Positions 3,479 to 17,043 of a stretch of DNA of 17,043 nt are shown in pieces (the stretch's first letter is position 1; the number at the start of each line of letters is the position of its first letter). This stretch comes from a virus (lineage: Duplodnaviria > Heunggongvirae > Uroviricota > Caudoviricetes), in the IMG/VR virus record IMGVR_UViG_2802429225_000003, positions 1 through 17,043 of that record; one strand, 5' to 3'. The notes under the pieces are model-generated. The model did not search any database. It was not told the origin of the DNA and was given only the letters and a program-made list of their open reading frames with translations. A program made the position numbers and the translations under genes.

Positions 3479-3846
3479 TGGCTGCAAAAGTTAAAGGTAT
3501 TAACCGGGCAAAAAAACGGCTGGACCAACTGATAGACACAATCCAGGGGAAAAAAGCTGTTCGGGCTATTTATAAAGCGTTGTACATCGGAGGGGCGCAG
3601 GCTGCGCTGTATACCCCCATCGACACGTCAACATTAATCAACTCTCAGTTTCGCGATGTTCGTCCGGGGCAAAACCGGGTTACGGGCCGCGTTGGGTATT
3701 CAGCGGGCTACGCCATGTTCGTCCACGATCCGCAGGTGAAACAACAGTTCCGGCGCGCGACGGCCAAGAAGGAGTTCCTGAAGTTAGGGTTTGACGAAAT
3801 GCGCGACCAGATTGACAGAGCAGTAGCAGAGGAGATGCGCCTTTGA
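3478..3846 (+). CDS. HK97 gp10-family tail component (neck/tail completion)
   Basis: 122-aa ORF with a PIDTSTLINS motif resembling the conserved DTGxLxNS signature of HK97 gp10-like proteins; TAATG coupling to the upstream gene. Confidence 0.55.
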   Translation: MAAKVKGINRAKKRLDQLIDTIQGKKAVRAIYKALYIGGAQAALYTPIDTSTLINSQFRDVRPGQNRVTGRVGYSAGYAMFVHDPQVKQQFRRATAKKEFLKLGFDEMRDQIDRAVAEEMRL

Positions 3847-4223
3847 GTACGCCAGTATTCATTAAATTTCGCGACTGGCTGGTTGGTGCGGGGTTGGCAG
3901 ATGGCTACACCATTCAGCTTGCGCGCTGGCTGGAGCAACCATCTGACGGCGGCTTCACTCGCTACATTGTTTTTCAGCCGAATGGAGGTACAGCACGGCT
4001 GCAGGATTTAGGGGCTGACGATAATGTGCAGGTGGTACTGGTCAGTGGCAAGAACGATGCGCAGACAGTCGTTCAGCGAGCGCAGGATATTCTGGATTAC
4101 ATCACCGAACATCCTGATAACGATTGTCTGAACGGAGTTTTTAATCTGGGTGGTATTCCTGCTCCCGCCAGTACAGAAGAGGGCCGAACGATTATCTCTT
4201 TGCTGTTCCGCTGCACATCCTGA
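3843..4223 (+). CDS. Tail terminator / tail completion protein (gpU-like position)
   Basis: 126-aa ORF with an apparent TTG start overlapping the upstream stop, AGAGGAG 8 nt upstream; last gene before the major tail protein. Confidence 0.45.
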   Translation: MSTPVFIKFRDWLVGAGLADGYTIQLARWLEQPSDGGFTRYIVFQPNGGTARLQDLGADDNVQVVLVSGKNDAQTVVQRAQDILDYITEHPDNDCLNGVFNLGGIPAPASTEEGRTIISLLFRCTS

Positions 4224-4271: not shown

Positions 4272-4297
4272 ATTTATGAATAATGAATGAGGTTTTT

Positions 4298-5047
4298 ATG
4301 GCTAGTTGCCAGAATGACTATGGAAAATTAATTGGGCGCAACGCAGTGCTTGAGGTTGTCGAGGGCTGTCCGGACACGGTGCCGCAGGAAGCCGACTGGA
4401 AGATCCTGGGGGCGATGACGACCAAATCGTTTGACCTGTCTCCAAACACCGTAACGTCAGAAGCAGACGACACGAAAGGCTTTGTTGAGGGACTGGTAAC
4501 CAGCGTGGACTTCACCATCTCTGGTGACGGCGAATGGCGTAAGCGTGATAAGCCTGGTGATTTCGGTCCGGCGTATATGACTCGCTATTACCTGCAGGAA
4601 ACAAAAGCGGGTCGCCAGCTGTCCGTGTGGGTTCGTCTGTCGTTTGCGACTATTACTATCACGGCGTACATGAATACCACAGCGTGGAGCGGAGAATTTG
4701 GCACTGGAGATATCGCGACATTCTCGGCTGAATTCAAAGTCGCAGATGCTGACAGCGTTACTGTAACGGATGACGGTGATATCGCTGTGACGAGTATAGC
4801 GGTTACGCCCAATTCACTCGGACTGAAAGTGGGAGAAAGCGGTACATTCAGCGTGAATTTTCTCCCTGCAAACGCGACAAACAAAAATTTCACCCTGGCT
4901 ACCGCCGCGCCTGCAATTGCTACAGCCAGCGTAGCAGCCTCCACTGTAACCGTAACGGCAGTAGCGGAGGGCTCGACTACGGTAACCGTGACCAGTGACG
5001 ACGGGAAATACACATCCAGTTGTGCAGTCACTGTAACGAGCGAGTGA
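4298..5047 (+). CDS. Major tail protein with C-terminal Ig-like (Big_2-type) domain
   Basis: Thr/Val/Ala-rich C-terminal segment (TVTVTAVAEGSTTVTVTSDDGK) typical of the Ig-like decoration domains on lambda gpV-type tail tube proteins; GAGG 6 nt upstream of the ATG at 4298 (an alternative ATG at 4283 lacks a Shine-Dalgarno). Confidence 0.7.
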   Translation: MASCQNDYGKLIGRNAVLEVVEGCPDTVPQEADWKILGAMTTKSFDLSPNTVTSEADDTKGFVEGLVTSVDFTISGDGEWRKRDKPGDFGPAYMTRYYLQETKAGRQLSVWVRLSFATITITAYMNTTAWSGEFGTGDIATFSAEFKVADADSVTVTDDGDIAVTSIAVTPNSLGLKVGESGTFSVNFLPANATNKNFTLATAAPAIATASVAASTVTVTAVAEGSTTVTVTSDDGKYTSSCAVTVTSE

Positions 5048-5051
5048 GAGT

Positions 5052-5708
5052 ATGGACGCACTTACAGATATCGGCGAAATGGTGATATCAACACGCGACG
5101 ATGATTTTTTTTTGCGTCCGTCTTTTATCGCTCTGACCCGAATCGGCTCTCCGGAAGAAATTGTGGAGGCGTACTCCATCATTAACGGCAGAGATTTTGG
5201 TGTACTGGTGCGCGCTGCGGAGTTGCAGGGAGTGCCGTCACCATGGCTGGTGGAATCTGTGAGCGGAACGGCATCCAGGCGAATGCTTAACGCCGCAATG
5301 ACGGTAATTCAGGCGTGTTGTGACAGGGATGCCACAACGCTGGTGGGGGAGCTGGCAGATGATTTGACTCGTCAACACGGCCTGATACCGGATACCGATA
5401 TGCTGATTATTGCGCGTGAATTACTGGAGCATGGCGTTATGGGCAAAGCGCCACTACGCAGATTGCAAAAGCACGAGAATCAGCAGACTTATACGGCAGG
5501 CTTTCGGGCTGTAGAGTATATCACCGCCGCACGTTCACACTTTGGACTTCCACGCGCCGAAGCGGAACAGCTCACAATGACCGCATTTCAGTTAATGCTT
5601 AAAGCGAAATACCCTGAAGAGAAAGGCTTCACCCGCGATGAGTACGATGGCATTATGGCTGCGCACGAGCAGCGGAAAATGCAAAAACTGGAAGCGATGA
5701 AGGCGTAG
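5052..5708 (+). CDS. Tail assembly chaperone (G/GT-like position)
   Basis: 218-aa ORF between the major tail and tape measure genes; GAGTGAGAG Shine-Dalgarno. No overlapping -1 frame extension of 60 aa or more is present downstream. Confidence 0.45.
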   Translation: MDALTDIGEMVISTRDDDFFLRPSFIALTRIGSPEEIVEAYSIINGRDFGVLVRAAELQGVPSPWLVESVSGTASRRMLNAAMTVIQACCDRDATTLVGELADDLTRQHGLIPDTDMLIIARELLEHGVMGKAPLRRLQKHENQQTYTAGFRAVEYITAARSHFGLPRAEAEQLTMTAFQLMLKAKYPEEKGFTRDEYDGIMAAHEQRKMQKLEAMKA

Positions 5709-5787
5709 TGGATTTATGTCAGAAGAATTTGCCGACGGCAGGTAATAGAAGAAAGCCCCGGAAACATTAAGCGTTCTGTAAGTAGCT

Positions 5788-5810
5788 AAATGTTTGCCGA
5801 GGCAACATTT
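5788..5810. promoter_or_regulatory. Imperfect inverted repeat (stem of about 10 bp) in an AT-rich intergenic region
   Basis: AAATGTTTGCC-GA-GGCAACATTT; lies downstream of both the + strand chaperone gene and the - strand acidic gene; no adjacent U-tract on either strand. Confidence 0.3.
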
Positions 5811-5901
5811 ATATGCTCAATACATTCAGATTAACCTTTTTCCCCCTCTTGGTTAAGGAGGCGACGGTTATTAAGTTACCAAAACAGGTGCTGCGCTTGT
5901 G

Positions 5902-6270
5902 TTATTCATGATGTGAATATTGCAAATCGTCAGCTTCACGAGATATATCAAAAAGGATATTTATCGCCAGAAGATATGCATTATCTACAACGCCATATGT
6001 CTCTGGAGTGATAGTGTTAGTATATCGATCGAAAGCATCTTCCAGGTAATCAAGCAAATCGTCATTTAAATACTCACTTCTCGGATCAAGCGCATGCAGA
6101 CCTTTAATACTCTCTCTATATTCGCTGAAGATTTTTGATATAAACGCTTGTTGTTCTGACCAATCATACAAATTAGCAATGGTAAGAGGCCTGTTAAGTT
6201 GTTCAAGTCGGGTGAGTTCACGAACCAACGACTGACAACCATCTCGAAGTTTTTCTGCTGTTAATGCCAT
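5902..6270 (-). CDS. Small acidic hypothetical protein (122 aa); antisense moron within the tail module
   Basis: Only convincing minus-strand gene in the window. The ATG at 6270-6268 is preceded by AGAGGG with a 6-nt spacer; the longer ORF-track form (to 6339) has no ribosome-binding site. Protein carries about 24 Asp/Glu against about 11 Lys/Arg. Flanked by AT-rich non-coding DNA. Confidence 0.55.
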   Translation of the reverse strand: MALTAEKLRDGCQSLVRELTRLEQLNRPLTIANLYDWSEQQAFISKIFSEYRESIKGLHALDPRSEYLNDDLLDYLEDAFDRYTNTITPETYGVVDNAYLLAINILFDISREADDLQYSHHE

Positions 6271-6412
6271 AATTAGCCCTCTGAGATTATTTATAGAAAG
6301 TAATATCTTACTATTTTTGCATTGAAGGCGGAGCTTCACCAGCCAGTTTTGTCAATTCAGTTATGGTGAGCGACTCCTGGCCTTCATGATGTATGACGAT
6401 GTAACAAGACCA

Positions 6413-6437
6413 CCTCGCTCCGGCGGGGTTTTTTATT
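6413..6437 (+). terminator. Hairpin plus T-tract just upstream of the tape measure start
   Basis: CCUCGC-UCCG-GCGGGG stem-loop (6 bp with one G-U pair, tetraloop) followed by TTTTTTATT, ending 15 nt before the tape measure ATG. Confidence 0.3.
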
Positions 6438-6451
6438 GCCCGGAGAATGAC

Positions 6452-9400
6452 ATGGCAGATGAGAAGAACGTCGGCAGTATCGTTTATGAAATAAGCGCAG
6501 ATGTCAAACCGCTGCTACAGGGCGGGAAGCAGGCCATTGATGCACTGGACAAACTGGATACTGCAGCCCAGCAGTCTGGAAGAGGGATGAGTAACCTGGA
6601 CCAGAGCGCGTCGCAAACCGGCACCACGTTTACTGAACTGGCCAGTTATGCTAACTCAATGGACAATCAGCTTCGTAAGCTGAACACCAGCGTGAGCGGT
6701 ATTGCGCGCGCGATGATGGAGGCTCGTACTGGTGTCAGCAGTACCACGAGTGAGTTAAATCGTGGCAATGCAGTAATTGAAGCACTCGGTAACCAGGTCG
6801 CAATACTTGAGGAAGCCCAGGAGAACGGAGCCAGAAGCGCAGCAGTTTTCGCCTCGCAGTTAAGAGCTGGTGCCAATGCTACGGAGGAAGAAAAGCGCAC
6901 TATCGCCGAATTGGCAGGCGTGTTTTATGATCTTAGCGCCGCCTCCGCTAAGGCTGCTAAATCAGCCGCATCGATGGCGGCCGCAACCCAACGTACAGAA
7001 TCATCAATATCCGGACTAGAGAAGGAAGTCTCTATTCTGAATACTGAGATGCAAACTGGTTCCAGAAGTGCTGCCATACTTGCTGCTCAGTTTAGTGCTG
7101 GTGAAGGTGCGTCTGACGCGCAAAAAGCCAAAATTGCACAGCTTGCAGGTGCTCTTTTTGATATGCGGGAGGCGCAAAAATCTGCATCTGCGGCATCAGC
7201 GGAGGCAGCTAAGCAACTTGCGCAGCAGGCAAATGAAGCGAACCGTATCAGCGGAATCACATCTGACCTTTCTAATCAAATAGCTATCCTGAGCGAACAG
7301 CAAACCAACGGAGCCCGCAGCGCAGCAATTCTGGCTGCTCAGTTACGAGCCGGAGCAAGTGCAACTGATGCCGATAAGCAGAAAATAGCCCAATTAACCG
7401 GGCAACTGTACGACATGAAGAACAGTGTCGATACAGGCACAAAAAGCCACGTCAACTGGAAAACCAGCGTACAGCAGGCCGGTTACCAGGTTCAGGACTT
7501 CATTGTTCAGGTGCAGGGTGGTCAGTCTGCTCTTGTTGCGCTCTCGCAGCAAGGATCTCAGCTTGCCGGGATTTTCGGCCCTGGCGGTGCGGTGGTTGGG
7601 GCTATAATTGCGCTTGGTTCTGTCCTCGCGGGCGTGTTGATTACGTCGCTGAATGGCGGCAAGAATGCCATGGTTGCGCTGAAAGAGGCTGCCGAGGCAA
7701 TGGACAAGGTGATCATCGTATCATCACAAGGTGTAGCCGCTCTTTCGGATAAATATGCGGCCCTTGCGCGTGTAAACGCTGACGTTGCAACGCTGCTCCG
7801 TAATCAGGCGCTGCTTGAGTATAACCAGGCCATTTCCAAGATACCGAAGGCCATAAGCGAAGCATCTGATGCTTTTATTACGTTCGGCGACCGTGCGATT
7901 GCCGCCGTTGGCGGGGCGTCGCCGAGCATCAAAAAATTCAACGCCGAGTTGTCCGCTCTCGGGGTCACTTCGAAGGAATGGGGAGAGGCAATTCAGCAGG
8001 CCAATAGTCAGGGGCAGTACGCATCTGGCATCGTAAACTCGCTGTCATCAACGGTGAATACACTTTCATCCCGACTTGGAATAAGCAAACAAGCTGCGTT
8101 TGATTTGGCAAGAGAATTGTCAAATCTGAGTAATAACCCATCACCGGAAGCACTTCAGGAGCTGGCGAAAAAACTCCAGGACATGAAGTCGTCATCCACT
8201 GACGGGCAGTCGGCCATCGCAGGACTGGCGGGTAAGCTTGTTGATCTGGCGAGAGAGGCAGCCAACGCGAAGATCAATGTAGACAGCCTGAATCAGTCCA
8301 CCGATAACCTGACCGCCGGACAGAAAAACCTTATCAAGCAGTCCGGACGTAACCTTGCCCTGTCAAAACTACAGGGTGAGGCTCGGGCCCGCCTGCAGGC
8401 ACAGTATGCCGCTGAAGATGCGGGATTTTCGAAGGACGATCCGCACGCCAAACAGATGGAGAACGACGCCGCAGCTACGTACAAAAATACGCAGGCGCAG
8501 AAAGATTTCCAGTCAACACATAAGAAAAGCATTTCACTGGCTGATTCTGTTGCTCAGAAGTTAGCGAATCTCAAGCAGCAATCGGAGCTCGCAGCCGACT
8601 CAACAAATGAGCTGAGCCGTGAGCAGGCCATGCTGACTGCGCAGCAGTCTCTTGGTAAAGGTGCAACCAAAGAGCAGATCGTATTAGCTGGTCAGTATGC
8701 AGCAAAAAAATGGGATACAGCCAACGCCATAAAAGCTGAAGCAGCGGCCCGAAAGCTCCTCCCTGAAGCAGCAGAGAACGCCAGTTACAAACAGGATGTT
8801 GAAGATCTGAATACCGCCCTGGCTGCGAAGAAAATAAGCCAGGAGCAGTACAATCAAACCTCGGAAAGACTGGCAGCAACACACCAGGCTAACCTCGCAA
8901 AAATTCAGTCGCAGCAGGTGGTAACGCCTCAACAGGAACTTGCGGCGCAGGTTGATCCCGTTCAGCAACTGGCGAATGAGAACGCAAAGAAACTGATACT
9001 CATTGATGAGTACAACAAGGCTGCGCTTGCAATCGTAAATGCAAGGCTGGCTAATGAGTCGCTAAGTCAGAGTGAAGCTGCTGCACAGTCAGCCGCTATT
9101 AACGCAAATACTCTTGCGTTAAAAAATACTCAGGAAACACAGTATGAGGAACAGAGGCTGGCAGCTCTGGAGCAGCAGTACCGTGCGCAATCAGTGTTGA
9201 ATGACTTTACGATGGATATGATCGACGCAGTCGGGCAACGAACCACCAACGCAATCACCGGCATTATTACCGGAACGCAGTCAGCAACAGATGCGCTACG
9301 AAATATGGCTTCAACAATTCTTGATCAGGCCGTTGGTGCTTTAGTTCAGATGGGTGTCCAGGCACTTAAAAACATGCTGATAGGGCAGTCAGCCAGTGCT

Positions 9401-9910
9401 GCTTCTGTTGCGCAGGCTGCAATAACAGGGCCTGCCATTGCCGCAGCATACAGCCCGGCAGCGGCGATGGTTTCGCTCGCATCATTTGGTGCAAATGCCG
9501 CAGCAGCTCAGACGGGGATCGCTTCAACAATGGGACTTACAAAAATGCTGTCCGTCGCTGGCGCTCGCTACAACGGTGGCCCGGTTTCCGCTAACTCAAT
9601 GTATCGCGTAGGTGAAAACGGCAAGCCAGAAATATTCCAGGCCAGCAACGGCAGTCAGTACATGATCCCCGGCGATAACGGACGAGTTGTCAGCAACAGA
9701 GATATGCAGGGCGGAAATAGTTCATCTCCTGTAAATATTGTCATTAACAATACGGCAGCGGGAACCGTTGTAGAAAATCAGGGTTTTAATCCGGACACGA
9801 AAACTATCACCCTCGCAGTGAACGAAGTCGCAAGGCAATTACGCTCGCATACGGGGGTAGTTGCTCGTGCATTGTCTGATAGCTGGAACACCACAGGAAA
9901 GGCACAATAA
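6452..9910 (+). CDS. Tail tape measure protein
   Basis: Longest ORF (about 1152 aa from the ATG at 6452, which has GGAGA 5 nt upstream; the upstream ATG at 6386 has none). Ala/Gln-rich helical composition, internal tandem repeats, a central hydrophobic Gly-rich segment (AGIFGPGGAVVGAIIALGSVLAGVLITSL) and placement before the tail-tip genes. Confidence 0.85.
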   Translation: MADEKNVGSIVYEISADVKPLLQGGKQAIDALDKLDTAAQQSGRGMSNLDQSASQTGTTFTELASYANSMDNQLRKLNTSVSGIARAMMEARTGVSSTTSELNRGNAVIEALGNQVAILEEAQENGARSAAVFASQLRAGANATEEEKRTIAELAGVFYDLSAASAKAAKSAASMAAATQRTESSISGLEKEVSILNTEMQTGSRSAAILAAQFSAGEGASDAQKAKIAQLAGALFDMREAQKSASAASAEAAKQLAQQANEANRISGITSDLSNQIAILSEQQTNGARSAAILAAQLRAGASATDADKQKIAQLTGQLYDMKNSVDTGTKSHVNWKTSVQQAGYQVQDFIVQVQGGQSALVALSQQGSQLAGIFGPGGAVVGAIIALGSVLAGVLITSLNGGKNAMVALKEAAEAMDKVIIVSSQGVAALSDKYAALARVNADVATLLRNQALLEYNQAISKIPKAISEASDAFITFGDRAIAAVGGASPSIKKFNAELSALGVTSKEWGEAIQQANSQGQYASGIVNSLSSTVNTLSSRLGISKQAAFDLARELSNLSNNPSPEALQELAKKLQDMKSSSTDGQSAIAGLAGKLVDLAREAANAKINVDSLNQSTDNLTAGQKNLIKQSGRNLALSKLQGEARARLQAQYAAEDAGFSKDDPHAKQMENDAAATYKNTQAQKDFQSTHKKSISLADSVAQKLANLKQQSELAADSTNELSREQAMLTAQQSLGKGATKEQIVLAGQYAAKKWDTANAIKAEAAARKLLPEAAENASYKQDVEDLNTALAAKKISQEQYNQTSERLAATHQANLAKIQSQQVVTPQQELAAQVDPVQQLANENAKKLILIDEYNKAALAIVNARLANESLSQSEAAAQSAAINANTLALKNTQETQYEEQRLAALEQQYRAQSVLNDFTMDMIDAVGQRTTNAITGIITGTQSATDALRNMASTILDQAVGALVQMGVQALKNMLIGQSASAASVAQAAITGPAIAAAYSPAAAMVSLASFGANAAAAQTGIASTMGLTKMLSVAGARYNGGPVSANSMYRVGENGKPEIFQASNGSQYMIPGDNGRVVSNRDMQGGNSSSPVNIVINNTAAGTVVENQGFNPDTKTITLAVNEVARQLRSHTGVVARALSDSWNTTGKAQ
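6750..7440 (+). repeat. Three in-frame tandem repeats of about 77-84 codons inside the tape measure gene
   Basis: Recurring peptide units NGARSAAVFASQLRAGANATEEEKRTIAELAGVFYDL / TGSRSAAILAAQFSAGEGASDAQKAKIAQLAGALFDM / NGARSAAILAAQLRAGASATDADKQKIAQLTGQLYDM, with cores starting near 6824, 7055 and 7307. Confidence 0.6.
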
Positions 9911-13889: not shown

Positions 13890-15864
13890 ATGGCCACACG
13901 TTACAACACCAATAATCCTGTGCCGTCCCATGCGGTTAAAGATTACAGCAACAACGCCCAAATCATTGATGAACTTGTTCATAAACAGGAATCAACAACA
14001 AAAGACCGGTTCGGAAAAGATCTGAAAACCTGGTACGGAATTAATAAAGAGGCGACCGACGCAACGAACGAGTTCATCGAAAACGGTCAGAATGCAATAA
14101 ATACGTTTAACCAGAATGGCAAGGATGCTATCGATAAATTTAGCAACGATAGCAATGCTGCGATTAATGATTTCGAGAGTGATGCGAATCAGGCGATAAT
14201 TAATTACGGTTATATTCTGGTTGACTCATTTCAGATCGGTGCTGAGATCACGCTCCGGAATCAGGCTCTTCACTGGCCTGCGCCAGAGGGTGACGGAGAA
14301 TATTATCGCTGGGACGGTGAATTGCCGAAGACGGTTCCAGCCGGAGCTACGCCGGAAACGTCAGGTGGGGTTGGGCCGGGAGCGTGGATTGACGTTGGTG
14401 ATGCTTCGCTGCGTAGCGATCTGGCGTCTGGAGGTAAGGCTGCATTGGTTGGCTATGGCAGCGCGACTGTAGAGGGTGCTCTTGACGATCTTTATGCCGC
14501 TAACGCTGCTCAGGGGGGGAAACTGGTTTTGATACTGTTGGCCACTTTCTTAATCTGACTGAATTACGTGCGCAGGCGCCTGCTTCAGCCGGAATGATTG
14601 TATATGTTGTTTCAGCAGCCAGCTTGTCACATGCAGAAACTCATCTTGGCGGCGGTTTTTTTGAGTCAGTCGATAATGTCCAGGCATGGCCTGATGATGG
14701 TGGTATTGTAATTAAACCAGACACAGGGTCGATTGTGTGGCGACGCATTAACTTCACCTCATACGATATGCAATTCTGGGGTGTCAAGCCGGACGGGGCT
14801 ACAGATAATGCGGAGGCAATTACGAAGGCCACACAGTATGCAAAGATGAATAAAGTTATCCTGGATGCACCCGCAGGGAATATTAACACAAGCGAAATGG
14901 TCCCTATTTATAATAATATGGGGATTCGAGGCCACGGAAAGGCTGAAGCTACGGTTTTCTATAAAACAACTAACAATATTTTTAATTATAAAAAAATGGA
15001 ACCACAGTTTTATCTGTGGACGCATTGGTAGGTTTTGTTCCAAATAATTGGGATCTTGCTGACTCTTCAATGGATTCATTTTGCTCTAACGGCAGAATTG
15101 AGAGCTGTATGTTTCGTAGACAGGGACTTGACCAATCAAACGTTGACACCTACAGAAATTATTATGGGTTGTTTTTTGGGAAGGCTGCTGCACCTGTAGT
15201 TCGGCAATGTTCATTTGAATGCGCATATATTGGATGTTATTCATACTGTCCATTCTCAGGAGTCATGGAAATGGTTGCATTCCCTCAATATGCAGGGAAG
15301 GGGTATGGTGGGATCGTTTTTGAGGATTTTCGTGGCGGTCAGATAAGGGTAATTGGTACATCAATGGACATGCGTCTTGTTCAAATAAGCGGTTATCAGT
15401 TTGGTTTTATTTTGTCAGGAATGCAATATACAACAATGACAAACTGTACTGCAGAAAATTGCACTCCAATGGCTGGAGAAACGACTTGCTTTGCATTTAG
15501 CTTCATGAACCCTTATTGTATTGTCATGAATACGTGCGCAACAGAAGAAGTAAAGGGCGGGCAGTTAAGAGTAATAGTTCAAGGAGATCCGTCTTTCAGA
15601 CCATCTTTAATTATAAATGGATTTTTGCCTATAGGTCAGAAAAACCCAATTTCAACAACCCCAATCATTTATGTAGACAATGCGGGCCTTGCAGAAACCA
15701 GCGTGATAATTAACGGAGGTGATTGGGCTATAAGTCCATCAGCAACCAACCTTGTCGCACCATCGGCTAGTGGTGGTGGCACGAAGGTCAGAATGATAGG
15801 AGTCAATGGCTCACCTAAATCAATTTGGACCATCTCCGCTAACGCCGATGTGCAGGAGTTTTGA
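13890..15864 (+). pseudogene. Tailspike / depolymerase-like receptor-binding protein, interrupted by two frameshifts at homopolymer tracts (or intact if the tracts are under-called)
   Basis: Three consecutive ORFs in three frames (13890..14558, 14594..15031, 15016..15864). Adding one G to the G7 run at 14513-14519 and one A to the A7 run at 14990-14996 gives one continuous protein of about 658 aa. It has an Asn-rich repeat N-terminus, an LRSDLASGGKAALVGYG segment, a beta-helix-like start (FWGVKPDGATDNAEAITKATQYA) and a Cys-rich C-terminal part. Confidence 0.6.
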
Positions 15865-15927: not shown

Positions 15928-17043
15928 ATGGTTATGACTAAGAAAAGCAATATAATACATAGTCTTACTTCATTGAGGATGTTTGCTGCCCTTGGCGTGT
16001 TTGTAAGCCATCTGGGAATTTTGTCTCAGTCCTCAATACATCAGTTCAACATAGCTGCAAAATACTTTTTTAATGGGTATGTTGGCGTAACGTTCTTCTA
16101 TATCCTCTCTGGCTTTATTATTAATTACAGTTTTAGCAAGCATTTATCTGAGGGGATGTTTAGCAATAAAGACTTTATTATCTATCGTCTGGCCAGACTA
16201 TTCCCTGTTCATCTTGTTTCACTGGTCTGTGTTCTGTTTTTATTCGGCTATGCAAATAATTGGGGATCTACAAACAAAGAAGCTTTATTCTATAATACAT
16301 TTCTACTTCAATCATTCATACCTGATGCAGGCTATTACTTTTCGTTCAATCCTGTATCATGGAGCATTTCATGCGAAATGTTCTTTTATTTTTGTTTTTG
16401 CCTACTCGTTAAATGCAAAACCAAATATCTCGTATTTCTATTTGCTGCCGTTCAGACTGTAAATGTTTACTTCCTTATACAACCACCAACAGGAATTTCC
16501 TTGCATTGGTTATTCTATATAAATCCTGTATTCAGGATTACAGATTTCATCCTTGGCATTATTATATGTAGAATATTTCTTTCGAAGCCTGTTACTCCAA
16601 AAGTTGTGGCGTGTAGCGCAATGGAATTTGGCTCAATTATTTTTCTAGTGTTAACAATTTATGTGGCAACAAACTACGTGGGCAATATGAATGTTAAATA
16701 TGATCTTTTATATATCCCTTGCATGGCTTCTATTGTTGTTGCGTTTGCCTTTAATGGTGGGGTTATTTCTCGTATTCTTGCAAATAAATATTTAATTTTG
16801 CTTGGAGAAGCTTCATTTTCTTTCTACATGTTCCACTGGATGATAGTATCTAAGTTAATAGAAATAATACAACCTAACAAAAACGATGTGCGTGATGTCA
16901 CTATTTATATAGTTAGCTGCTTAATCAGCTCCGTATTTGTCTCTGTTATTTCGTTTAAATTAATTGAAATGCCAGCAAATAAGTTAATAAGGAATACGTG
17001 GGTAAAGATTAAAATTCAATTACACACAAGAAAACGCGCATAA
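15928..17043 (+). CDS. Acyltransferase-3 family integral membrane protein (O-antigen acetyltransferase-like, probable lysogenic conversion gene)
   Basis: 371-aa strongly hydrophobic multi-pass protein; N-terminal LTSLRMFAALGVFVSH matches the conserved Arg/His-containing first helix of acyltransferase-3 (OafA/Oac-type) enzymes; very low GC; immediately downstream of the tailspike. Start could be the ATG at 15934 instead. Confidence 0.7.
   Translation: MVMTKKSNIIHSLTSLRMFAALGVFVSHLGILSQSSIHQFNIAAKYFFNGYVGVTFFYILSGFIINYSFSKHLSEGMFSNKDFIIYRLARLFPVHLVSLVCVLFLFGYANNWGSTNKEALFYNTFLLQSFIPDAGYYFSFNPVSWSISCEMFFYFCFCLLVKCKTKYLVFLFAAVQTVNVYFLIQPPTGISLHWLFYINPVFRITDFILGIIICRIFLSKPVTPKVVACSAMEFGSIIFLVLTIYVATNYVGNMNVKYDLLYIPCMASIVVAFAFNGGVISRILANKYLILLGEASFSFYMFHWMIVSKLIEIIQPNKNDVRDVTIYIVSCLISSVFVSVISFKLIEMPANKLIRNTWVKIKIQLHTRKRA

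What the first reader, a model, noticed from the sequence alone, without database searches (positions are those of the whole stretch)
5052..5708. Tail assembly chaperone without the expected frameshift partner, carrying a T9 tract
In lambda-like long-tailed phages the chaperone is normally made as two products through a programmed -1 frameshift into an overlapping downstream ORF. Here the 218-aa ORF ends cleanly, and the only thing downstream is non-coding DNA and the antisense moron. Either the chaperone is a fused single-frame form, or the frameshift partner was lost or displaced when the moron inserted. A T9 homopolymer at 5105-5113, inside codons 18-20, is an unusually long in-frame slippery tract.
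Basis: partly seen in the sequence, partly recalled or inferred. Interest (0 to 1): 0.4.

Follow-up and report, generated by a model that had tools for sequence, protein, structure and literature searches.

The report
Single-ORF DUF6246 tail gene, incidental T9
The gene between the tail-tube and tape-measure genes is an ordinary member of a widespread phage family (DUF6246) that is always one reading frame with no frameshift partner, and its run of nine T's is a lineage-specific by-product of coding, not a recoding signal.

Summary
ORF 5052-5708 encodes 218 aa, nothing overlaps or extends it on the + strand, and T9 lies at 5105-5113.

- **Family:** the protein is a full-length member of Pfam DUF6246 (PF19759) and phrog_791, the family of Salmonella phage ES18 gp17. 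It lies directly after the major tail protein gene in 80 of 80 related loci.
- **Single frame is normal:** 319 of 322 sequenced phages carry it as one continuous frame. There are about 450 clusters at 50% identity, and full-length members are 180-246 aa.
- **No frameshift signal:** no aligned column has a slippery heptamer in more than 9 of 78 homologues. No -1 or +1 extension is conserved, and synonymous sites show no constrained stretch.
- **The moron displaced nothing:** in the 68%-identical Salmonella relative, which lacks the moron, the tape-measure gene starts 38 nt after the stop.
- **T9 is incidental:** only this lineage has it, through Y19F in the motif D-[YF]-[FL]-[FL]-R-P-S. It is not statistically unusual (72 of 200 shuffles), has no downstream structure, and leads to stops after 24 or 7 codons.

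The chaperone role rests on gene position and a two-domain model. No sequence or fold link to known chaperones was found. This is ordinary, and the question of how this family works without a frameshift applies to the whole family.

The parts
4283..5047 (+). Major tail (tube) protein with a C-terminal Big_2 Ig-like domain. Its stop lies 4 nt before the DUF6246 start.
   Evidence: phrog_853 at E 7.9e-89 and PF02368 at E 1.3e-15. A homologue lies directly upstream of DUF6246 in 80 of 80 related loci.
5052..5708 (+). DUF6246 family gene (218 aa plus stop). It is the only gene in the chaperone slot and is a single reading frame.
   Evidence: PF19759 at 201 bits against a cut-off of 27, covering residues 21-199. 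phrog_791 at E 4e-72, covering 1-215 of a 227-position profile. ES18 gp17 is a homologue.
5052..5441 (+). N-terminal domain, residues 1-130: two short beta hairpins plus five helices. Conserved motifs are RPSF, RxGxP, CC-x2-D and HG.
   Evidence: AlphaFold2 model with pLDDT mostly 78-94.
5105..5113 (+). T9 homopolymer inside codons 18-21 (D F F L). It is lineage-specific and incidental.
5442..5495 (+). Inter-domain linker, residues 131-148. Model confidence is low, but the sequence is conserved (G-K-A-x2-R-x-L-Q-x-H-E). It is a candidate peptide-binding motif.
   Evidence: pLDDT is about 40. G131, K132, A133, R136, L138, Q139 and E142 are invariant or nearly so. Synonymous diversity is highest here, at 0.88-0.91, so the constraint acts on the protein.
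5496..5705 (+). C-terminal helical domain, residues 149-218, holding the most conserved block of the family (AEQLTMTxFQ...KYPxxKGFTRxEYD).
   Evidence: phrog_29657 matches residues 168-209.
5709..5901 (.). Non-coding spacer between the DUF6246 stop and the 3' end of the antisense gene. It holds no remnant of an extension ORF.
   Evidence: Three-frame translation. tblastx and blastn against 85 related loci find nothing in this stretch.
5902..6270 (-). Antisense moron of 122 aa and unknown function, inserted in the variable slot between DUF6246 and the tape-measure gene.
   Evidence: Called as 122 aa in L002-L005. No Pfam, PHROG, PADLOC or NCBIfam match. Homologues at about 62% aa identity sit in the same slot and orientation in L025, L028, L041 and L049.
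6412..6451 (+). Conserved terminator-like hairpin (7 bp, UCCG loop), then T6, then GGAG, immediately before the tape-measure start codon.
   Evidence: It is shared with ES18, L007 and about 20 other loci.
6452..9910 (+). Tape measure protein, 1152 aa from ATG 6452. The ORF list's start at 6386 lies upstream of the hairpin.
   Evidence: phrog_1538 at E 2.4e-181. The start aligns with the annotated start of ES18 gp21.

Best explanation
ORF 5052-5708 is a typical member of the DUF6246 / phrog_791 family, whose type example is ES18 gp17.

**Shown.**
- The family is encoded as one uninterrupted ORF of about 190-245 aa, directly downstream of the major tail protein gene and upstream of the tape-measure gene.
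- It has no programmed frameshift, no overlapping ORF and no separate partner gene.
- The gap between it and the tape-measure gene is a hot spot for moron insertion. Here that gap holds one antisense gene.

**Inferred.**
- The protein is the functional equivalent of the lambda G/GT tail assembly chaperone, made as a single polypeptide.
- The N domain and the conserved linker hold the tape measure protein. The highly conserved C-terminal helical domain recruits the tube protein, so no G:GT ratio has to be set by recoding.
- Relative dosage is instead set by gene order. The gene is coupled to the abundant tube protein gene, and a terminator-like hairpin sits just before the tape-measure gene.

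**T9 tract.** It is a by-product of a Tyr-to-Phe change in a T-rich coding motif. At most it costs some full-length product through RNA polymerase or ribosome slippage into dead-end frames.
For: **Family membership.**
- PF19759 scores 201 bits against a cut-off of 27, and phrog_791 matches over the full length.
- There are 267 relatives of 218-246 aa, all carrying PF19759.
- The family makes about 450 clusters at 50% identity, with E up to 0.001.

**Single frame.**
- 319 of 322 phage genomes cover at least 80% of the protein in one tblastn piece.
- Open stretches in the -1 and +1 frames across the stop are short and inconsistent in 79 distinct loci.
- No aligned column holds a slippery heptamer in more than 9 of 78 sequences.
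- Synonymous-codon diversity is flat, at 0.68-0.91, with no dip.
- Split forms come from contigs whose tube and tape-measure genes are also fragmented.

**Synteny.**
- A tube protein homologue lies upstream in 80 of 80 loci.
- The tape-measure gene follows after 0 to more than 1200 nt.
- L007 has a 38-nt gap, and ES18 has three morons in this slot.
- No other candidate chaperone gene lies between the terminator protein gene and the J-like gene.

**Two-domain model.** pLDDT is 76.6 and pTM 0.68. In BFVD, the weak hits beyond family members are enriched in proteins named tail assembly chaperone or tail assembly protein.

**T9 is incidental.**
Against: - No sequence link to any Phage_TAC family was found. 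All 64 members were scanned at E up to 10, and one matched Phage_TAC_6 at 0.18. PHROGs gave no better.
- In lambda, an excess of GT over G blocks tail assembly (Xu et al. 2013, as cited in PMC5009743). A protein that always carries both domains would therefore have to work differently.
- No experiment on any DUF6246 protein was found in the searchable literature.
- The assignment of partners to the two domains is pure inference.
Confidence: 0.6

Rival explanations
1. DUF6246 is not a chaperone. It could be a tail or virion component, or a regulator that happens to sit in this slot. These phages would then assemble tails without a G/GT-type chaperone, or with a host factor.
For: No sequence or fold similarity to known chaperones was found. 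PHROGs and Pfam both list the family as of unknown function.
Against: The position between the tube and tape-measure genes is invariant, with the tube gene upstream in 80 of 80 loci. That position is the classical chaperone slot (PMC5009743). No other candidate gene exists in the tail module. Weak BFVD fold hits lean towards chaperone-named proteins. Known chaperone families are themselves too diverged to detect by sequence, which is my own knowledge of Pell et al. 2013 and was not checked here.
Confidence: 0.25
2. A cryptic, non-canonical recoding event still makes a second product. One candidate is a +1 shift at the 3' end, as the ES18 GenBank note suggests. Another is slippage at the T9 tract.
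For: The ES18 gp17 annotation reads 'possible +1 frameshift at 3' end of gene'. In ES18 the +1 frame is open for 39 codons before the stop and 27 after it. T9 is a formal U_UUU_UUU heptamer, and runs of 9 A or T cause RNA polymerase slippage in bacteria (PMC5009743).
Against: In the window the +1 frame is open for only 2 codons before the stop and 12 after it. The -1 frame has no slippery site in the last 21 codons. Extensions vary from 1 to 80 codons with no conservation across 79 loci. Frames reached from T9 stop after 24 (-1) or 7 (+1) codons. T9 is absent from all other family members. RNA downstream of it folds no better than shuffles, z = +1.05. There is no synonymous-site constraint anywhere in the gene.
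Confidence: 0.06
3. An ancestral frameshift partner (T-like ORF) was destroyed or displaced when the antisense moron inserted downstream.
For: The moron and 190 nt of non-coding DNA do lie where an extension ORF would be.
Against: The Salmonella relative L007 (68% aa identity) and many IMG/VR loci have no insert. The tape-measure gene starts 0-58 nt after the stop, and the DUF6246 ORF has the same length. In Klebsiella phages the DUF6246 gene overlaps the tape-measure start. Stretch 5709-5901 resembles nothing in related loci. The window protein aligns end to end with the family.
Confidence: 0.02
4. The T9 tract is a selected expression attenuator or phase-variable switch for the chaperone in this lineage.
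For: T9 is kept unchanged in the window and in five independent metagenome contigs that differ at 17 other positions of the gene. A run of 9 T is at the length known to cause transcriptional slippage.
Against: The five contigs are identical to one another across this gene, so they amount to one close lineage. No T8 or T10 variants were seen. The tract is explained by one Y-to-F change plus codon choice in a T-rich motif. It is not unusual by chance.
Confidence: 0.05

Closest known systems
ES18 gp17 / Pfam DUF6246 (PF19759) / phrog_791
   Same: Homologous over the full length (31% identity to gp17; 42-47% to Jerseyvirus, Klebsiella and Enterobacter phage homologues). It has the same position after the Ig-domain tube protein gene and before the tape-measure gene. 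It is the same single ORF, with the same moron-prone gap downstream and the same hairpin element before the tape-measure start.
   Different: The nearest sequenced phage is only 47% identical. Closer relatives are known only from metagenomes (99%) and one Salmonella enterica assembly (68%). This lineage alone has the T9 tract. The moron here is antisense, whereas ES18's three are sense.
Lambda gpG / gpGT tail assembly chaperone pair (-1 programmed frameshift)
   Same: It has the same gene position between the tube protein and tape-measure genes. The total size is comparable to a G-plus-part-of-T fusion. The predicted two-domain layout could map onto a TMP-binding part and a tube-protein-binding part.
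   Different: There is no slippery site near a first stop, no overlapping ORF and only one product. No sequence or fold similarity was detected. The 30:1 G:GT ratio that lambda needs cannot be produced this way.
Lactococcal phage p2 ORF12 (PDB 3D8L), a tape-measure chaperone
   Same: Helical, with 68 residues superposed at 3.6 A rmsd.
Transcriptional slippage sites at A9/T9 runs (dnaX of Thermus, IS elements)
   Same: A run of nine T's in a coding region, at the length reported to cause slippage.
   Different: There is no productive alternative frame, no conservation and no evidence of use.

Membership tests
Pfam DUF6246 (PF19759) / phrog_791 | Score above the curated gathering threshold, over the full profile length | tested here: met
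   201.1 bits against a cut-off of 27, covering profile positions 1-184 of 185. phrog_791 at E 4e-72, covering 1-222 of 227.
Pfam DUF6246 (PF19759) / phrog_791 | Family-invariant residues present (G8, E9, S24, G32, C89, H127-G128, G131, R136, Q139, E142, LTMT 174-177, P188, G192, T194, EY 197-198) | tested here: met
   All invariant columns of the 64-sequence alignment are kept in the window protein.
Pfam DUF6246 (PF19759) / phrog_791 | Gene context: directly downstream of the Ig-domain major tail protein gene and upstream of the tape-measure gene | tested here: met
   This holds in the window. The tube protein gene lies upstream in 80 of 80 related loci. The same order is seen in ES18 and the Klebsiella phages.
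Lambda-type G/GT tail assembly chaperone with programmed frameshift | Encoded between the major tail protein and tape-measure genes | tested here: met
Lambda-type G/GT tail assembly chaperone with programmed frameshift | Slippery sequence near the 3' end of a first ORF, with an overlapping second ORF that extends it | tested here: not met
   The only heptamers are in the T9 tract at codons 19-20. No alternative-frame ORF of 40 aa or more exists. Extensions past the stop are 21 (-1) and 12 (+1) codons. No slippery site is conserved across the family, and there is no synonymous constraint.
Lambda-type G/GT tail assembly chaperone with programmed frameshift | Sequence membership in a described Phage_TAC or Phage_tail_T family | tested here: not met
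   64 members were scanned against Pfam at E up to 10. Only DUF6246 recurred, and one member matched Phage_TAC_6 at 0.18. In PHROGs, one member matched a chaperone family at 0.015.
Lambda-type G/GT tail assembly chaperone with programmed frameshift | Fold similarity to a solved chaperone | tested here: inconclusive
Lambda-type G/GT tail assembly chaperone with programmed frameshift | Binds the tape measure protein and the tube protein, is required for tail assembly, and is absent from virions | not testable with these tools
   This needs genetics and biochemistry. No published experiment on a DUF6246 protein was found.
Programmed slippage site (ribosomal -1 frameshift or transcriptional) | Slippery motif in the right frame | tested here: met
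   T TTT TTT at 5105-5111, and a run of 9 T.
Programmed slippage site (ribosomal -1 frameshift or transcriptional) | Conservation of the motif among homologues | tested here: not met
   Only the window lineage has T9. One homologue has T7 and six have T6, so 9 of 78 have any heptamer there. The nearest outside relative has T4.
Programmed slippage site (ribosomal -1 frameshift or transcriptional) | Downstream stimulatory RNA structure | tested here: not met
   Stretch 5114-5190 folds at -15.4 kcal/mol against a shuffle mean of -18.6, z = +1.05.
Programmed slippage site (ribosomal -1 frameshift or transcriptional) | A meaningful trans-frame product | tested here: not met
   The -1 frame stops after 24 codons and the +1 frame after 7.

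The most novel reading that the evidence does not exclude
DUF6246 proteins are a distinct, frameshift-independent class of tail assembly chaperone. A large clade of siphophages would then build length-controlled tails with one two-domain polypeptide and no G:GT ratio. That clade includes ES18-like phages, Jerseyviruses and many Klebsiella, Pseudomonas, Vibrio and Mannheimia phages. It would be a broad exception to the 'conserved translational frameshift' rule, and it would apply to the whole family rather than to this window in particular.
Probability: 0.5. Interest if true: 0.45.

Novelty: new member of a known kind. Interest (0 to 1): 0.2.

Why it matters
For this window it matters mostly for annotation. 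The gene should be called a DUF6246 family protein (putative tail assembly chaperone, no frameshift). No ribosomal_slippage feature should be added, and the tape-measure start should be moved to 6452.

The wider point concerns the family, not this sequence. The G/GT frameshift is described as conserved in long-tailed phages except T4 (PMC5009743). Yet hundreds of sequenced phages carry DUF6246 in that slot with no recoding signal, and nobody appears to have tested what it does. ES18 or a Jerseyvirus would be a tractable system to ask how tail length control works without a fixed chaperone ratio.

Tried and rejected
- **DNA-level relatives:** megablast of 4283-6500 against phages and E. coli genomes found only the ~45-nt hairpin element.
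- **Eroded extension ORF:** three-frame translation of 5052-5950, plus tblastx and blastn of 5700-6460 against 85 related loci, found nothing in 5709-5901.
- **Conserved slippery site or premature-stop (dnaX-like) truncation:** none was found in a codon alignment of 78 sequences.
- **Embedded RNA element or overlapping ORF:** the synonymous-codon entropy profile is flat.
- **Rfam on 4900-6700:** only sub-threshold noise, namely sok at 17.9 bits against 59 and sR10.
- **Naturally split (G/T-like) DUF6246 genes:** the short N-only and C-only proteins in the representative search come from contigs with many broken genes and are assembly artefacts.
- **In-frame readthrough into the tape measure:** the stop is in frame with the downstream ORF in only some lineages, about what chance gives.
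- **Literature:** the ES18 paper could not be retrieved. The Shashou genome note on a missing slippery sequence concerns a different chaperone family, IPR014859. The eiAU paper concerns a canonical frameshift pair. The T102 virion proteomics could not be mapped to this gene without its supplementary table.

Full report
**What is in the sequence**

The window is the morphogenesis region of a siphovirus or prophage. In order it encodes:
- a capsid protease or scaffold fragment, a decoration protein and the major capsid protein;
- head-tail connector proteins;
- a tail terminator, 3843-4223 (PF23842);
- a major tail protein with a Big_2 domain, 4283-5047 (phrog_853);
- the ORF in question, 5052-5708;
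- an antisense ORF, 5902-6270/6339;
- a tape measure protein ending at 9910 (phrog_1538);
- lambda M/L/K/J-like tip proteins;
- a Tail_spike_N protein and an acyltransferase.

ORF 5052-5708 encodes 218 aa and ends at TAG. No + strand ORF of 40 aa or more overlaps it. Beyond its stop, the -1 frame runs 21 codons and the +1 frame 12.

T9 lies at 5105-5113. It reads GA[T TTT TTT] TTG across codons 18-21, not 18-20.

**What the gene is**

The protein is a full-length member of Pfam DUF6246 (201 bits against a cut-off of 27). It also matches phrog_791, listed as 'unknown function', at E 4e-72.

Salmonella phage ES18 gp17 is a homologue. Its GenBank entry reads 'function unknown; possible +1 frameshift at 3' end of gene'. 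It lists three 'possible morons' between gp17 and the tape-measure gene.

tblastn finds the protein in 322 sequenced phages. They include Salmonella Jerseyviruses and Klebsiella, Pseudomonas, Escherichia, Vibrio, Aeromonas, Erwinia and Mannheimia phages. In 319 of them, one continuous frame covers at least 80% of the protein, and the best identity is 47%.

The large protein collection gives 267 relatives of 218-246 aa, all DUF6246. One metagenomic cluster is 99% identical, and one Salmonella enterica protein is 68% identical. An exhaustive profile search finds about 450 clusters at 50% identity, and full-length members are 180-240 aa.

**Is there a hidden frameshift partner?**

I collected 80 IMG/VR loci, ES18, two Klebsiella phages and the contigs that carry the closest relatives.

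- **No conserved extension.** Across 79 distinct loci, the open stretch that crosses the stop in the -1 or +1 frame is short and erratic. There is no conserved extension.
- **No conserved slippery site.** In a codon alignment of 78 distinct genes, no column holds an X_XXY_YYZ heptamer in more than 9 sequences.
- **No hidden constraint.** Synonymous-codon diversity in 26 representatives below 85% nt identity is flat, at 0.68-0.91. It is highest in the conserved linker, which argues against a hidden RNA signal or overlapping ORF.
- **Split forms are artefacts.** Short 'split' DUF6246 proteins in metagenomes come from contigs whose tube and tape-measure genes are also broken.
- **The moron displaced nothing.** In the 68%-identical Salmonella relative L007, the tape-measure gene starts 38 nt after the DUF6246 stop. 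In many other loci the gap is 0-58 nt. Elsewhere it grows beyond 1200 nt.
- **No remnant in the spacer.** Stretch 5709-5901 resembles nothing in related loci.

The single ORF is therefore the family's normal state. The gap downstream is a moron insertion hot spot, as it is in ES18.

**The T9 tract**

Only the window and its 97.4%-identical metagenomic relatives have T9. Those are five contigs, all with T9.

The family motif here is D-[YF]-[FL]-[FL]-R-P-S. L007 has GAT TAT TTT CTG, a run of only four T's. Of the other homologues, one has T7 and six have T6. A Tyr-to-Phe change plus TTT/TTG codon choice is enough to make T9.

A T9 or A9 run appears in 72 of 200 dinucleotide-preserving shuffles of the window. 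The RNA downstream folds no better than shuffles, z = +1.05. A -1 shift stops after 24 codons and a +1 shift after 7.

Runs of nine A or T are known to cause RNA polymerase slippage in bacteria (PMC5009743). Some loss of full-length product is therefore plausible, but nothing suggests that the tract is used.

**What the protein probably does**

*Shown.* The gene always follows the tube protein gene, in 80 of 80 loci, and precedes the tape-measure gene. It is the only gene in that slot, and no other chaperone candidate exists in the tail module.

The AlphaFold2 model (pLDDT 76.6, pTM 0.68) has three parts:
- an N domain, residues 1-130;
- a linker at 131-148 with low confidence but a conserved sequence (GKAxxRxLQxHE);
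- a C-terminal helical domain holding the family's most conserved block.

*Inferred.* This protein is a single-polypeptide counterpart of lambda gpG/gpGT. One part would hold the tape measure protein and the other would recruit the tube protein.

*Not shown.* No homology to known chaperones was found:
- Pfam and PHROG scans of 64 members find no chaperone family.
- BFVD gives only weak hits, TM 0.35-0.46, that lean towards chaperone-named proteins.

Lambda needs roughly 30 G per GT (PMC5009743). A protein that always carries both parts must therefore work somewhat differently. That is the open question for the family.

**Comparison and verdict**

The gene is a new member of a known family of unknown function. 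It is 47% identical to the nearest sequenced phage. The missing canonical frameshift was already flagged in the 2005 ES18 annotation.

'Partner lost to the moron' is refuted. The T9 tract is incidental. Interest for this window is low. The family-level puzzle deserves an experiment in ES18 or a Jerseyvirus.

Noticed in passing
window 6412-6456: A ~45-nt element lies directly before the tape-measure start codon. It is a 7-bp GC hairpin with a UCCG loop, then T6, then ATTGCCCGGAG, then ATG at 6452. It is 85-100% identical in ES18, mEp390, several Klebsiella phages, four E. coli chromosomes and about 20 related loci, although the flanking genes are only 30-50% identical as proteins. In moron-free L007 it fills the whole 38-nt gap, so morons insert upstream of it. 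The SD-containing CCGGAG is the reverse complement of CTCCGG in the hairpin. It may be a partial terminator that sets tape-measure dosage, or a recombination boundary. The tape-measure start listed at 6386 is probably wrong.
   Followed up: partly
window 5902-6270 (-): The antisense 122-aa moron has no Pfam, PHROG, PADLOC or NCBIfam match. Homologues at about 62% aa identity sit in the same slot and the same antisense orientation in four otherwise different DUF6246 phages (L025, L028, L041, L049). It therefore behaves as a mobile cassette specific to this gap. No sigma-70-like promoter was picked up for it.
   Followed up: partly
window 13890-15864: The Tail_spike_N head-binding domain is a separate 222-aa ORF here. 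Relatives L002 and L003 have one tailspike gene of at least 710 aa that matches only over the first ~180 residues. The next ORFs, 14594-15031 (weak pectate-lyase-like match) and 15016-15864, overlap each other. Homopolymers G7 (14513-14519) and A7 (14990-14996) lie near the ORF ends. This could be a swapped receptor-binding module, a frameshifted tailspike, or sequencing indels.
   Followed up: partly
window 15928-17043: An Acyl_transf_3 family acyltransferase (E 8e-20) lies directly after the tailspike region. It is probably an O-antigen-modifying lysogenic conversion gene, which suggests a temperate phage or prophage.
   Followed up: no
protein P0136 (metagenome, 443 aa): This single predicted protein joins a tube-protein C-terminal piece, a DUF6246 that lacks its C-terminal domain, and a tape-measure N-terminus (weak TMP_3 match). 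It is probably a deletion or misassembly. It is still the only fusion seen between DUF6246 and its presumed partners.
   Followed up: no
L088 and L089 (Klebsiella phages RSU-F4K5, KlebP_265): In these phages the antisense morons (a DNA methyltransferase, DUF2591 and small ORFs) sit between the tube protein gene and DUF6246 instead. DUF6246 overlaps the tape-measure start. Either side of the DUF6246 gene can therefore take insertions.
   Followed up: no
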